Shown: piece after piece, positions 1,200-13,171 of the stretch
Position numbering within the stretch: position 1 is the first letter of the stretch
Layout: the number at the start of each line of letters is the position of its first letter
Assembly: GCF_009914755.1 (NCBI RefSeq)
Contig: NC_060941.1
Length of the DNA stretch: 64,000 nucleotides
From: the human T2T-CHM13v2.0 reference genome, Homo sapiens
Reading direction: 5' to 3' (one strand)
Translations under genes and position numbers: made by a program
Notes under the pieces: generated by a model
The model's database searches: none
What the model was told of the DNA's origin: nothing
The model's input: the letters and a program-made list of their open reading frames with translations, nothing else

Positions 1200-1704
1200 A
1201 GGAGGTAAAAGAGAAAGAGGAAAGGGCAGCCATAAAGAAAGGGAGCCTTGGCCTGAGGACACGGGCCTCTTCTGTTCTCTCAGGGAGACCCACCTGAGCA
1301 TAGATCACCTTTCCAGGTGGACTAGAGGCTCCAGGAGGCCCCTCCAAGCCTCTCCCACTATGCAAGCCTTGCTCTCTCTTCTATCCTGTATTGGGAAGGG
1401 GGGTAGAATACAGGATAAGATGAGCTCTCCAGCCCCTGGGGAACCCCCCAGGGGGAGATCCTAGGGGAGTGAGGTACAGGGTTAGTGAGCCAATAGGCAT
1501 GACTGAGCATCTATTAGGCGTCAGTTTCCGAACACACAGGGATGTGTAGGACACGGTGTCATCCATGTAAGCAGCATTTGTTGTAGGAAAAGATGCAGGG
1601 AAGGATGGGGGAGGGGATGCTAAAGAAAGAGAAGGAAGGAAGAGACTGAAGAAACAAGGGGAAGGGGAAGAAAGAAAGACGCAGTTGTCGATTCTCTCTC
1701 TCTC

Positions 1705-2000
1705 TTTTTTTTTTTTTTTGAGATGGAGTCTCGCTCTGTTGCCCAGGATGGAGTGCAGTGGCACGATCTTGGCTCACTGCAACCTTTGCCTCCCAGGTTC
1801 AAGCTATTCTCATGTCTCAGCCTCCCAAATACCTGGGACTGCAGGTACGTACCACCATGCCCAGACAGTTTTTTATATTTTTAGCAGAGATGGGGTTTCA
1901 CCATGTTAGCCAGGATGAACTCGATCTCCTGACCTCGTGATCCTCCATCCTTGGCCTCCCAAAGCGGTGGGATTACAGGTGTGAGGCACTGCACCCGGCC
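1705..2000 (-). mobile_element. Alu
   Basis: polyT followed by Alu consensus. Confidence 0.95.
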
Positions 2001-5000
2001 ATCAATGTCTCTTAACTCATACTCTAGTTGTGGCAATCGGATATCTAGAGAAAGGGTGGCTAAAAAGCTCAGTGATAAGTGAGCAGTCACCTAAGATAAG
2101 TTACAAGGGGGGTGTCAAGGGAGGTTTCAGGAGGGCTTGGGACAGAGGAGTGGGCTGGCAGGGTAGGTGGCTTCTTCTCACCTGTAGACCTGGCTGGCCT
2201 GGTTGTCCTTGAGGAGACCCTGGCCCAGAGGCTTCACTGGTTCTTGAGCTCCATGGATTCCCAGGAGCTTGTCTGGGCTGGGCAACCCTGAAAGGCCCAG
2301 TGTCCACAGGGTTCCTGGCAGCCCAGAAACTCCTGGGCATCTAGGGTGGTCCTGGGGCCCTTCATGGCCAGAGTAGACCTAAGGTCCTAGTGGTCATAGA
2401 GATCCTGGTCTGCCAGGAGGTCCAGAGGCCCAATTCCACCCTGCAACTGGAAGAAGAGGCTGGAGTCATGGATGTGAACCACAGAAGTAGGGGTGTGTAT
2501 TCGAAGGTAGGGGTCTCTTACAGGGGCAGTCAGTGGGGCCAAGCCTGGGAACCCTGCTGGGAGTAGAGCGTGCACACGGGAAAGTGCCCACGGCCCTGAG
2601 ATCACTTAGGGAAATCCAAGATGGTCCTGGGGGTGGGGCTACTGAGTTCCAGGTCCTATCCCAGCACTTGGGTGTAAATATAGAGATGGTCTCTATAGTT
2701 AGAGACAATATGGTTTCTTAGCTTGAGACTCCTGTCATCACCTTTACCCCAGACCCTTAATTCACAGGATCTTCAACCACAATTCTACCCAAATAATACC
2801 ATCACCTGTCGTCCACCCACCCTACTCATTACCCACCCACCATCCATTCAGCCCCATCCACCATTCACTCTCCTCCCCACCCACTCACCATCCACCCATT
2901 TGTCTGCCTACCGTCAACTCACCACCCACTTCCTACCAACTGCATACCATCCACCCTCACCGCTGGTCTAGCTGCTCCTTCCAAAAGTAGTGCTAATCAG
3001 GAGCCACAGAGGGTGCTGGGAGGCTAGGGTCTCTGAGGAGGGTCTGGGGGTCCCCTGGGGAGTTCCTAAGGAGCAGGGAATCTTAGGATCCCTAAAGCTC
3101 CCTTTCACCAGGAAAGCCAGAGGCCCATTCTGTCCTGGGGTACTCCTCTGCCCCTGCTTTCCCTGCTGGAACAAATGGGACATGCAGTAGAGATGGAAGC
3201 AGGGAGGAGAGGGTTTTCTGTCTCACTCCAGCTCCTTAGTCTTCCTTTTGTTCACCCACCTCCCCTCCACTGCCATCCCAGAGGATCCCAAAGGCCCAGA
3301 GATTTCTCACCCAGGGTGGCACTTATCTGACATTCAGGGGGCCCAGCAGGGCAGGCACATCCAGAAGGTGAGTTGGGAGCAGGATGAGATAGGCTTGGAA
3401 GAGAGGTTAGAATCAGGCTGGCTTTTAGATTACTAAGTCCCACCTCCCCATTGTACAAATGGGAAAACTAAGGCCCAAAGAGAGGTGTAACCATAGATGA
3501 CTGCAACGGGGCGGCAAGCTGACCTGGGGGATGGGGTGAGAAAGCCAGTGATGCCTCCTCATGTGGTGGGGAATAGGGTCACATGAACCTGTCACTTTCT
3601 CCCTAGCTCTGACATTCCACATAAGGTCCTTGGGAGGCAATAGGGTGGGGCCCAAGAAGAGAGGAGTAGGAGGGGGTGGAGTGCTGTGTGCCTCTACCCA
3701 GCATCCATCTGTTTCCCTGACCATCTCACCTTTTCAGGCTGTACACCTTCTCTCCCTCCCCTATCCCATGCCTGCTTACTTGTTTGCCTGTGTAGGAGCC
3801 AGGTACTGAGGAGTACAGGTCAGTGTGGCCTGAAAGAGCCTAATGAAACTCCCATTCATTAGTGGAAGTCAGGGTGGGGAGTGGGGGCAGGGGACCAGCA
3901 TTCCAGGTAGCTGACCCCTGCCTCGGACTTTGGACTCAGAACCCAGGGGTCTGACTTGAGGAACAGCAGAAACCCATCCTCCAGTCCATTGCCCTCAGAG
4001 GGCTCTTGGGTGCTGCTGGGAGCAAGCCTGATGGATAGATGTGGGCTCTGAGACTTGGTCTAGCTTGACAGCTACTACCTCATTCTTTCCTCTGAAGAAT
4101 GAACAAATGAATGAAGAGGGAGACTTTACCCCAGACCCTTAATTCACAGGACCTTCAACCACTCTTCTACCCAAATAATGCCATCACCTGTCATCCACCC
4201 ACCACCTACTCATATCTGTTTTCTGATATCTGATTTCATATCTGTTTCTAAATCTCTCCCACCTCTGCAAGTTTTTCATTTCATCACATCTATTCACCTG
4301 TCTGTGCCTTTCCATCTCTCTGTCCTGTTCCCTCTTTCAGCCCCTCCCTCTCTTGGTTTTTCCCTTGCTAGTACTCCCTCCTCTTCTCTCTATCCTTTCA
4401 CTCCAAATCATCATAGAATCTTAGCATCAGAAGAGACCCAAGAGGGTCATAATAAGGACACCATCAATTTGTAACCTGCTTTCTGGTATACAAGTCTGTC
4501 ATTTTAATAGACAGCCTCATTTGATCCTCCTTAACAGCCTGCCAGAGTGAAGTAGGGAATAGCATCCCCAGTTTACAGATAAGGAAACTGAGGTTCACAG
4601 TGGTGAAGAGACAAGCCCACAGCTAATAAGGACAGAGCTGAGATCTGAACCCTTGGCTCGGACTGCAGGACCAGTGCAGACTGCCCCACAGTTTGTGCAT
4701 CCCAAGCTGGGAGCAAAGCTCTTTTCCATTTCAGGCTGTCTGGCTTTCCCCTGGCTTGGGGCCCAGCTTCTGCTGCTCTTTAGATCATCATGACTGGGTG
4801 GGGGTAAGGAACAGCCCACACAGATCTCAAAGATTACTGGCTCCAAACATCAAGTCTCTGAAAATGGTGCAGACCAAGGGAGTGAATCCAGGCTTCAGGA
4901 GAGGAGACAGAGGCTCTGTGGATTAGGAGTTCCAGGTGTAATAGGCCTTGTTGCTGGGCCTACCCAGCCCTGTTCCTCTGCCGTCAAGTTCTCTCCAGCC

Positions 5001-11430: not shown

Positions 11431-12159
11431 GATCATCTCTAATGAAGACTTTCAGCCTGTATGCCCTGAATGTAAAACTGACCACCTGTGGCTCTGGATC
11501 CCCATTGTGCCCCATATGAACATCTCCCAGGGCACCTGCACACTTCTCAGATTTATTTTATTTACATACTATCGTCCCTCATTAGGCAGTGAGCTCCTTG
11601 AGGGCAGGGGGTGATCTTGGTCATCTCTGCATCCCTGGTATGTAGCATAAAGCCTGTGCATATTAGGCGTTCAGTAAATCTGTGTTACATGAATGGTAGG
11701 AGGTGCTTGGAAGGCCTCTTTCCTGTGCATCTTCCTGCCTCCTTGGAATTAACCCAATGATGAGGGGTGGAGGGACACCAGAGGATGGACTGAGGGGCTG
11801 GCGTTGAGGTGTGGGAATCTGTCTCATCTGGCAACCTTTGCAGATTCCCACACTCACCTGCACTCATGCTTCATCCCAGGCATGTTGCGTGGGTTTGTCC
11901 GGCCTCTCCTGCACTCCTGCCTCTGTGTCCTGGCACCTTTTCTCCTCTTGGGCTTGCTGAACAGGGCACATGTCTGGCATTGGGAGCAGAACTACTCTTC
12001 TCCATTCATTTTACTCTCACAAGAGCTTCAAGAGGTAGGATGGGTGGAGATGATCTACCTCCATGTTACAGCTAAGGTCAGTCAAACTCCAAGTTCACGC
12101 AAGTTGGTGGCAGAACAGGGTCCAGTGATGATCAAGGAAGGAGATGGGGTGGGGAACGT

Positions 12160-12464
12160 TTTCTTTTCTTTTTTTCTTTTTTTGAGACTGAATCCTGCTC
12201 TGTTGCCTAGGCTGGAGTGCAGTGGTGTGATCTCGGCTCACTACAACCTCCATCTCCTGGGTTCAAGCGATTCTCCTGCCTCAGCCTCCTGAGTAGCTGG
12301 GACTACAGGCACGTGCCACCACGCCTGACTAATTTTTTTTATTTTTAGTAGAGACGAGGTTTCCCCGTGTTAGCCACGATGGTCTCGATCTCCTGACCTC
12401 ATGATCCACCCGCCTTGGCCTCCCTAAGTGCTGGAATTACAGCCGTGAGCCACCATGCCCGGCC
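12160..12464 (-). mobile_element. Alu
   Basis: Alu consensus. Confidence 0.95.
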
Positions 12465-13171
12465 TGGGGGCAGTTTTCTGAATCAGGCACAGGCTGGGCT
12501 TCCCCAGGGACTTGAGGAAGCTGGTTCTGTTTGCCCTTCTCCAAGGCATATGGGGCAGAAGGGTCCCCACTTCATCTATGAGATGGAATGGAGAGAACCC
12601 CAGAATCTTGGCCCCAGCCATCACTTTCCAGCCCTTCTGCAGTCTTGATGGTTGCCAGTAGGTGCCGTCAGTTTGCAACTTTTTGGTCTGTCCTGCAGGT
12701 CCGGCTGCCAGTCCCAATCTCCCTGCAATCATCTCTCAGTAAGTAGGAGGTAGCCCAATCCCCGTGAGGCTGAAAGACCCCTGTCCTGGGGGAAGAAGCA
12801 GGAAGAGGGTCTCTGAACTGCATTTCAGCTTGGCTGACCTGCAGCTTTCTAGGCCGAGACAAAAAAAAAAAAAAATCCACAGTGGGTTACTGATTATTCC
12901 TGGACAGGTACGCTTAACCTGAAACCAGCTCCAGTACAGCAGAAGCCTTTGTAGGGAAGAATGGGTGGGAATTAGCGGGGGCCTGAGAGGGAACCTAGGA
13001 GATGGATCTTTGCTCCAAATGCCACTCCAGGGCTCTTCTCAATTTGGGCAGGATTGGGCAAGGCTGGGGGAATAGGGATCAATAGGATTTTACAGAGGGT
13101 CAAGCCAGGCCCAACACTAGCCCAAGTAGCAACACTGGGTGAATTAAAAAAGCATCCCTTCCTTAAAATTC

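What the first reader, a model, noticed from the sequence alone, without database searches (positions are those of the whole stretch)
1294..12850. Hidden, decayed multi-exon collagen gene upstream of and antisense to IGFBP4
Seen: on the - strand, about 10 blocks between polypyrimidine-AG and GT donors show Gly-X-Y periodicity once indels are allowed. Many non-Gly third positions are one substitution from GGN (AGA, AGT, AGC, TGA, GAT). Several blocks start on a Gly codon and end in phase 0, as collagen exons do. All blocks are on one strand, separated by intron-like DNA containing Alus, LTRs and L1. Established: CxCP-x-GPP after a TSPN domain is the architecture of FACIT collagens such as COL21A1 and COL22A1. 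Inference: a unitary pseudogene of a lost vertebrate collagen that likely continues beyond the left edge. I do not recall it being annotated, but could not check.
Basis: partly seen in the sequence, partly recalled or inferred. Interest (0 to 1): 0.9.

Follow-up and report, generated by a model that had tools for sequence, protein, structure and literature searches.

The report
Dead collagen exons upstream of IGFBP4
A short stretch between the human TOP2A and IGFBP4 genes holds three, perhaps four, dead exons that once encoded part of a collagen-like triple helix, but it is much smaller than first described and its gene family could not be named.

Summary
Partly confirmed. On the minus strand, window 1306-3165 (possibly to 3401) holds three exon-like blocks with decayed Gly-X-Y periodicity.

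Block B (2182-2441) is beyond chance:
- It has 24 consecutive in-frame triplets: 14 Gly, 8 more one base from GGN, and 13 Pro among 48 X/Y residues.
- My frameshift-tolerant score is 49.5. The maximum was 25.0 in 60 shuffles of 80 kb and 19.0 in 200 kb of other human DNA.
- It also gives the top frame-free GG lag-9 signal.

Blocks A (2961-3165) and C (1309-1387) are convincing only together with B. All three share a strand, are colinear, and have polypyrimidine-AG and GT boundaries (P about 8e-4 for three such blocks within 1.9 kb).

Not supported:
- About ten blocks reaching 12850. Interval 3400-12850 is at background.
- A continuation beyond the left edge. No exon-like block lies as far as the TOP2A promoter.
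- A TSPN domain or FACIT identity. Pfam and PDB searches found only RPL23AP75 and Alu-derived matches.

The blocks are single copy in the human genome with no detectable parent collagen. No homologue appeared in the two large protein searches. My own COLQ-paralogue idea failed its control.

Best reading: an old (order 10^8 years), unprocessed relic of a collagen-like gene, family unresolved. Orthology could not be tested, because no vertebrate genomes were available.

The parts
2182..2441 (-). Block B: the main dead collagen exon. It has 24 in-frame Gly-X-Y triplets with two in-frame stops (TGA, TAG). After one frameshift, a short terminal run with four more Gly codons follows, ending CAG|gtgaga. 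It is preceded by cttcttccagttgcag.
   Evidence: DP score 49.5, against shuffle maximum 25.0 and control-DNA maximum 19.0. Top lag-9 GG autocorrelation. Pfam Collagen PF01391 E 0.0026, 17.9 bits, below the 27.2 cut-off. Pro at 13 of 48 X/Y positions, P 1.2e-4. No tandem repeat. Single copy.
1309..1387 (-). Block C: a short dead collagen exon of 9 triplets (6 GGN plus AGA, AGT, AGT; one TAG stop). Acceptor ccccccttcccaatacag, donor AAG|gtgatc.
   Evidence: DP score 18.5. Only 2 segments reached that score in 400 kb of control strand. It is exon-like.
2961..3165 (-). Block A: a probable dead collagen exon. Two overlapping frames both show Gly-X-Y runs, and at least two frameshifts are needed to read it through. 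Acceptor catttgttccag, donor GCG|gtgagg.
   Evidence: DP score 13.5 at penalty 8 and 21.0 at penalty 4, which is within background on its own. GG lag peaks at 9-10, 17 and 26-28. It is exon-like.
3262..3401 (-). Block A': a possible upstream exon holding the Cys-Ala-Cys-Pro-Ala-Gly-Pro-Pro motif and a few degenerate triplets. This is the weakest part.
   Evidence: two segments scoring 8.5 and 10.0. No lag-9 periodicity. The exon limits 3401 and 3262 are my reading of the sequence (tctcttccaag|, GGGAG|gtgggt). The contexts printed are offset by a few bases and do not themselves show AG| or |gt.
1688..2005 (-). An Alu inserted in the B-C spacer, which reads like an intron.
   Evidence: Masked stretch in the hub table. 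The sequence with its poly-A was read.
2742..2955 (-). GGTGGATG-like low-complexity DNA in the A-B spacer. An adjoining 90-nt stretch is duplicated at 4124-4213 (92% identity).

Best explanation
Window 1306-3165 (perhaps to 3401), minus strand, is the remnant of an unprocessed collagen-like gene. It lay head-to-head with IGFBP4, about 11.8 kb upstream of the IGFBP4 start.

Three exons (A about 205 nt, B 260 nt, C about 78 nt) once encoded roughly 180 residues of Gly-X-Y triple helix. The gene is dead: the exons now carry stop codons, frameshifts and many Gly codons mutated by one base. The spacers have taken up an Alu and a low-complexity repeat.

Nothing suggests a present function. The DNA appears to drift neutrally. 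Gly-codon decay suggests inactivation on the order of 10^8 years ago. The rest of the gene (signal peptide, non-collagenous domains) is deleted, decayed beyond recognition, or made of exons too short to detect.

Shown: the periodicity, its strand, the exon-like boundaries, single-copy status, and the lack of recognisable domains nearby. Inferred: that it was once a functional gene, that it is unitary, and its age. The family is unresolved. The large collagenous exons fit the small 'collagen-like domain' genes better than fibrillar or FACIT collagens, but that comparison rests on recall.
For: - Block B statistics.
- Codon-structured composition in block B: positions 1-2 of the 9-mer are G in 17 and 19 of 24 triplets. 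Positions 4, 5, 7 and 8 are C in 12, 12, 15 and 10 of 24. Third codon positions are mixed.
- Pro is enriched in X/Y (13 of 48).
- Non-Gly codons are mostly one base from GGN (11 of 13).
- Pfam Collagen is the only family hit for block B (E 0.0026).
- Three exon-like blocks lie on one strand within 1857 nt, where controls predict 0.18 (Poisson P 8e-4).
- With the same settings the plus strand reaches only 16.5 anywhere in 80 kb.
- TRF finds no tandem repeat in A, B or C.
- The DNA is single copy.
- A six-frame search of the human genome finds no paralogue better than E 0.009.
- G-site decay is 15 of 66 sites. This gives a Jukes-Cantor distance of about 0.27, or 0.20 if the two AAG codons were never Gly.
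Against: - The Pfam Collagen score is below the gathering cut-off (17.9 against 27.2), and the hit vanished when whole frames were scanned.
- No homologue was found among proteins of 154-2000 residues, or among 1.84 billion cluster representatives at E 0.001. Whether those libraries hold vertebrate proteins is unknown to me.
- Blocks A and A' are not significant alone.
- Reading frames and intron phases between B and C cannot be reconciled without assuming a further 1-nt indel (my reading).
- At the inferred decay, a Pfam-type domain in neighbouring exons should still be detectable, as RPL23AP75 is. None was found.
Confidence: 0.78

Rival explanations
1. One reading: a FACIT-type collagen (TSPN domain, then Cys-x-Cys-Pro, then the helix) with about 10 exons spanning 1294-12850 and running on past the left edge.
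For: The Cys-Ala-Cys-Pro-Ala-Gly-Pro-Pro string at 3336-3362 lies just upstream of the helix blocks, on the same strand. Short true collagen exons score at background level in my test (COLQ exons 9-19), so further exons cannot be excluded.
Against: - No LamG/TSPN or VWA match in any frame.
- Minus-strand segment density in 1294-12850 is at the control level (16 against 14.2 expected), and no exon-like block lies outside 1306-3162.
- No exon-like minus-strand block lies between -10600 and 1293.
- The strict motif pattern does not hit chromosome 8. Its only chromosome 6 hit is at about 145 Mb, not where I recall COL21A1 lying (gene positions are recalled).
- From recall, FACIT genes belong to the 1p/6/8q/20q paralogy group, not 17q21.
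Confidence: 0.08
2. A fragment copied long ago from another collagen gene: a duplicated, non-unitary pseudogene fragment of three or four exons, never a gene of its own at this place.
For: Only 3-4 exons are detectable within about 2 kb. No promoter-proximal or C-terminal parts were found.
Against: No parent was detectable in the human genome by DNA or by six-frame protein search (best other hit E 0.009). That search scored only 30 candidates, and the query is degenerate.
Confidence: 0.1
3. Not coding-derived: a chance or compositional periodicity, or a decayed 9/18/27-bp minisatellite in GC-rich DNA.
For: GC-rich DNA gives false positives in my scorer (the IGFBP4 CpG island, 14810-15671, scores 63.0 at the lenient penalty). 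The antisense of block B also scores when frameshifts are cheap (39.5). Block A shows periodicity in two frames at once.
Against: - TRF finds no repeat even at score 30.
- Only codon positions 1-2 and the Pro positions are biased, while third positions are mixed.
- Block B exceeds all 60 shuffles and all control DNA by a wide margin.
- Splice-like boundaries sit on all three blocks.
Confidence: 0.04

Closest known systems
Human collagen unitary pseudogenes COL6A4P1/COL6A4P2
   Same: Unprocessed remains of a collagen gene with no working human copy. COL6A4P2 is listed as a loss relic in the supplement of PMC10195156 (passage seen).
   Different: Those have a known intact mouse orthologue and VWA domains, span large intervals and are transcribed. 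Except for the mouse anchor gene shown, this is from recall. Here only 3-4 helix exons survive, no orthologue is known and no other domain is found.
FACIT collagens (COL21A1, COL22A1 and relatives)
   Same: Gly-X-Y helix with imperfections, and cysteines close to the start of a helix segment.
   Different: No TSPN or VWA domain was detected. The helix exons of 205-260 nt are far larger than I recall for FACIT genes. The chromosomal paralogy group differs (recall).
COLQ, the collagen tail of acetylcholinesterase
   Same: A short helix of about 60 triplets. COLQ lies on 3p25 near TOP2B, and I recall that region as paralogous to the TOP2A region on 17q21. A Cys-Trp...Pro-Pro-Pro-Pro...Leu-Phe string at window about 3640-3715 superficially recalls the COLQ proline-rich attachment exon.
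   Different: The COLQ exon 2 and exon 3 peptides match unrelated control DNA better than they match this locus. The reverse search found no chromosome 3 hit. COLQ helix exons are about 27-100 nt and phase 0, against 205-260 nt here.
Small collagen-like-domain genes (C1q/TNF family, collectins, class A scavenger receptors)
   Same: From recall, these have a short helix encoded by a few large exons, often with a Gly codon split by the intron, and cysteines just before the helix. Blocks B and C can both be read as starting with a split Gly codon.
   Different: No C1q, C-type lectin or SRCR domain lies downstream, as far as the TOP2A promoter.

Membership tests
Collagen triple-helix coding sequence | Gly at every third residue over a long run, in one frame. 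| tested here: met
   Block B: 14 Gly plus 8 one-base-off codons among 24 consecutive in-frame triplets. Binomial P 2e-10 per position, or 3e-5 after correcting for 160,000 positions. It is met as a decayed sequence, not an intact one.
Collagen triple-helix coding sequence | Proline enrichment at the X and Y positions. | tested here: met
   13 Pro among 48 X/Y residues, against a CC dinucleotide frequency of 0.084 (P 1.2e-4).
Collagen triple-helix coding sequence | Pfam PF01391 match at or above the gathering score. | tested here: not met
   17.9 bits against a cut-off of 27.2, E 0.0026, and the only family hit. No hit when whole frames were scanned.
FACIT collagen | N-terminal TSPN (LamG-like) domain, with or without VWA/FN3 domains, upstream of the helix. 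| tested here: not met
   No such Pfam family at E up to 10 in six frames of window 1-13000. No such PDB chain in the three minus frames. Sensitivity for decayed, split exons is limited.
   The string is present at 3336-3362 with the following Gly codon mutated. The strict pattern gives 15 genome hits against 10 for the control, none on chromosome 8 and the one chromosome 6 hit at about 145 Mb. It is therefore not shown to define the family.
Unitary pseudogene | Disabling lesions in a formerly coding frame. | tested here: met
   TGA and TAG in block B, TAG in block C, and at least one frameshift in B.
Unitary pseudogene | No functional parent or paralogue copy in the same genome. | tested here: inconclusive
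   No DNA copy. The best other six-frame hit has E 0.009. Only 30 candidates were scored, and the query is low-complexity.
Unitary pseudogene | Intact orthologue at the syntenic position in other species. | not testable with these tools
   No vertebrate genomes or alignments were on hand. The two large protein searches found nothing.
COLQ-like collagen tail | Proline-rich attachment domain exon upstream of the helix. | tested here: not met
   The human COLQ exon 2 peptide finds better matches in unrelated control loci, and this locus is not among the top 8. No chromosome 3 hit in the reverse search.

The most novel reading that the evidence does not exclude
These exons are the last trace of a vertebrate collagen-like gene that sat between TOP2A and IGFBP4. 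The gene was lost before or around the radiation of placental mammals and has not been annotated as a human pseudogene. An intact orthologue may survive in marsupials, monotremes, sauropsids, amphibians or fish. That would add a member to the collagen superfamily that humans have lost.
Probability: 0.35. Interest if true: 0.65.

Novelty: new member of a known kind. Interest (0 to 1): 0.42.

Why it matters
If it is unitary, the relic records the loss of a collagen-like gene from the human (probably the eutherian) lineage. It also points to a specific interval, TOP2A-IGFBP4, where a living orthologue could be sought in other vertebrates. That would interest people who study the evolution of the extracellular matrix and gene loss.

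In itself it is a dead, apparently functionless remnant of about 2 kb, with no sign of present activity. It also shows that strongly periodic coding relics can be found from sequence alone, and that such claims tend to overreach in extent.

Tried and rejected
1. COLQ paralogue.
- I recalled that 17q21.2 and 3p24-25 are paralogous and that COLQ lies near TOP2B. I then noticed a proline-rich string at about 3640-3715.
- I located human COLQ exon 2 by a degenerate pattern and read its helix exons.
- tblastn of its exon 2 and exon 3 peptides ranked unrelated control loci first.
- A relaxed motif also occurs in a control locus.
- The reverse search gave no chromosome 3 hit. The idea is rejected.

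2. Homologue searches with block B found nothing:
- the word-indexed protein library, longer proteins only;
- the 1.84-billion representative library;
- six frames of the human genome.

3. Domain searches found only RPL23AP75 and Alu-derived matches:
- Pfam on six frames of window 1-13000;
- Pfam on the three minus frames of the left flank;
- PDB phmmer on the same minus frames.

4. A tandem-repeat origin was rejected: TRF found nothing in the blocks.

5. An internal duplication of exons was rejected: only a 90-nt non-exonic duplicate exists.

6. Literature.
- Five full-text searches gave no paper on a collagen relic here. The term sets were: collagen / unitary pseudogene / IGFBP4; TOP2A / IGFBP4 / collagen / synteny; collagen / pseudogene / lost in mammals / FACIT; col28a2; and unitary pseudogenes / collagen / human lineage / gene loss. 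For these I saw only listings and abstract starts.
- The supplement of PMC10195156 has no IGFBP4, TOP2A or collagen entry. Its only 'col' matches are COL6A4P2 and a Colon tissue column.
It may list human unitary pseudogenes that bear on novelty.

8. A first scorer with cheap frameshifts (penalty 4) was too permissive in CpG islands. I replaced it with penalty 8.
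Full report
**Setting.** The window is human T2T chr17:41,292,001-41,356,000 (hub table; confirmed). The finding concerns the interval between TOP2A, to the left and outside the window, and IGFBP4, which starts at 14951 on the plus strand. I read the minus strand of 1-15300. I also fetched the 16 kb to the left of the window, which reaches past the TOP2A promoter.

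**Is the periodicity real?**

A plain count of GGN at 9-nt spacing singled out 2244-2450 on the minus strand, but few other places.

I then wrote a local dynamic-programming scorer for Gly-X-Y triplets:
- +3 for GGN at the first position, -0.5 for a codon one base away, and -3 otherwise.
- +1 for Pro and -1.5 for a stop at X or Y.
- A penalty for each frameshift or codon indel.

With a lenient penalty of 4 the scorer was fooled by CpG islands and by the antisense of collagen-like DNA. I therefore used a penalty of 8.

Results with penalty 8:
- Block B (2182-2441, minus) scores 49.5, the top of 80 kb on both strands. The plus strand reaches only 16.5.
- Sixty block-wise dinucleotide shuffles of the 80 kb gave maxima with mean 18.4, sd 2.6 and maximum 25.0.
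- Twenty 10-kb stretches of other gene-rich human DNA (200 kb, both strands) gave a maximum of 19.0. Two segments reached 18.5 and 29 reached 13.5.
- A frame-free statistic, the excess of GG pairs at lags 9, 18 and 27 in 240-nt windows, also ranks block B first: 18.75, against a control maximum of 12.5 in 19,520 windows.

**Anatomy of block B.** From 2441 downward there are 24 consecutive triplets in one frame with no indel.
- First positions: 14 are GGN. Eight are one base from GGN (TGG, TGA, GTC, GAC, AGA, TGG, AGC, GAA). Two are AAG.
- After one frameshift, a short terminal run containing four more Gly codons ends at CAG|gtgaga.
- Thirteen of the 48 X/Y residues are Pro, where 0.084 is expected (P 1.2e-4).
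- Composition by position of the 9-mer is codon-like. Positions 1-2 are G. Positions 4, 5, 7 and 8 lean to C. Third codon positions are mixed.
- TRF finds no tandem repeat there even at score 30, so a decayed minisatellite is unlikely.
- Pfam Collagen is the only family hit for the block's translation, but below threshold (E 0.0026, 17.9 bits against 27.2).

**The neighbours of block B.**
- Block C (1309-1387) has 9 triplets: 6 GGN and three AGN, with one TAG. It sits between ccccccttcccaatacag and AAG|gtgatc. Its score of 18.5 was reached only twice in 400 kb of control strand.
- Block A (2961-3165) lies between catttgttccag and GCG|gtgagg. It shows Gly-X-Y runs in two overlapping frames, and needs frameshifts to be read through. 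Alone it is within background.
- Block A' (3262-3401) holds the Cys-Ala-Cys-Pro-Ala-Gly-Pro-Pro string, but shows no lag-9 signal.

I formalised 'exon-like' as a segment scoring 8 or more, with a polypyrimidine-AG at its start and a GT(A/G) at its end.
- Three of the 16 minus-strand segments in 1294-12850 qualify. They are exactly A, B and C.
- Control DNA gives 38 such segments per 400 kb of strand. That predicts 0.18 in the 1857 nt the three blocks span (Poisson P for three or more is 8e-4).
- In B and C together, 11 of 13 non-Gly first-position codons are one base from GGN, against 0.38 expected (P 8e-4).
- As a positive control, the same test on 43 kb of human COLQ flagged 10 segments. By my reading of the peptides and splice contexts, eight of them are true helix exons.

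**What is not there.**
- Minus-strand segment density in 1294-12850 (16) equals the control expectation (14.2), and nothing exon-like lies outside 1306-3162.
- The minus strand from -10600 to 1293 has 11 segments, none of them exon-like. A continuation past the left edge is therefore not supported.
- Caveat: true COLQ exons of 27-45 nt score only 9-19. Short decayed exons would be missed by this test.
- Pfam scans of all six frames of 1-13000, and of the three minus frames of the left 10 kb, found only the RPL23A processed pseudogene.
- PDB sequence searches of the same minus frames found RPL23A and Alu-derived pieces only.
- So no TSPN, VWA, C1q, lectin or other known domain accompanies the helix exons.

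**Relatives.**
- The block B DNA is single copy in the human genome.
- For 2010-3420, only a GGTGGATG-like low-complexity stretch and a local 90-nt duplicate have other matches.
- The block B translation finds no human paralogue better than E 0.009 in six frames.
- It finds no protein of 154-2000 residues in the word-indexed library, and none at E 0.001 among 1.84 billion cluster representatives. I do not know whether those libraries hold vertebrate proteins.
None is on chromosome 8, and the single chromosome 6 hit is at about 145 Mb. The positions of the FACIT genes are from my recall.

**A lead of my own that failed.** I recalled that 17q21.2 is paralogous to 3p24-25, where COLQ lies near TOP2B. 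I then saw a Cys-Trp...Pro4...Leu-Phe string at about 3640-3715, upstream of the helix blocks.
- I located human COLQ exon 2 and read the gene's exons.
- Its exon 2 and exon 3 peptides match unrelated control DNA better than they match this locus.
- A relaxed form of the motif occurs in a control locus too.
- The reverse search gave no chromosome 3 hit.
- COLQ helix exons are about 27-100 nt, against 205-260 nt here.
- I reject the idea.

**Age (inference).** Of the 66 G sites in the Gly codons of B's 24 triplets and C's 9 triplets, 15 have changed.
- This gives a Jukes-Cantor distance of about 0.27, or about 0.20 if the two AAG codons were never Gly.
- With mammalian neutral rates of roughly 1-2.2e-9 per site per year (my knowledge), that is on the order of 10^8 years. 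Inactivation probably came before or around the eutherian radiation.
- This is an upper-leaning estimate, because non-fibrillar helices carry native imperfections.

**Verdict.** The extent, the FACIT/TSPN architecture and the leftward continuation are not supported. The family and the unitary status remain open, because no vertebrate genomes, alignments or pseudogene tracks could be consulted. In addition, paper reading closed before the supplement of PMC2864566 could be checked. No paper on such a relic turned up in five full-text searches (listings only), nor in the one supplement I saw.

Noticed in passing
window 10919-11443 (-): The RPL23AP75 processed pseudogene is confirmed. Pfam Ribosomal_L23eN and Ribosomal_L23 both hit at E about 1e-12, and the match to PDB uL23 chains has E 7e-65. 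There is an in-frame stop, and a frame change between the N-terminal piece and the rest.
   Followed up: partly
window 2742-2829 and 4124-4213: A 90-nt direct duplicate (92% identity, 1382 nt apart) sits beside GGTGGATG-like low-complexity DNA. Relatives of that low-complexity DNA are scattered over GC-rich regions, including the far ends of several chromosomes such as 9, 10, 12, 16 and 22.
   Followed up: partly
window 14810-15671 (-), the IGFBP4 CpG island and first exon: This very GC-rich DNA gives a high Gly-X-Y score on the antisense strand when frameshifts are cheap (63.0). It is a false-positive class to keep in mind for period-9 scans.
   Followed up: yes
window and L002, at several Alu elements: Alu translations match PDB chains (gamma-tubulin complex component 2 isoform 3, ISY1, SLC3A2, cDNA FLJ55172) at E 1e-3 to 1e-5. 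Presumably those deposited isoforms contain Alu-derived segments. The matches say nothing about this locus.
   Followed up: no
window about 745-830: A compound TA-rich microsatellite (CTCATATATATA-like units) lies next to an interspersed repeat at about 830-1240.
   Followed up: no
window about 3640-3715 (-): An open 102-codon frame holds a Cys-Trp...Pro-Pro-Pro-Pro-Thr-Pro-Leu-Phe string just upstream of the helix blocks. Its resemblance to the COLQ attachment exon did not survive a control.
   Followed up: yes
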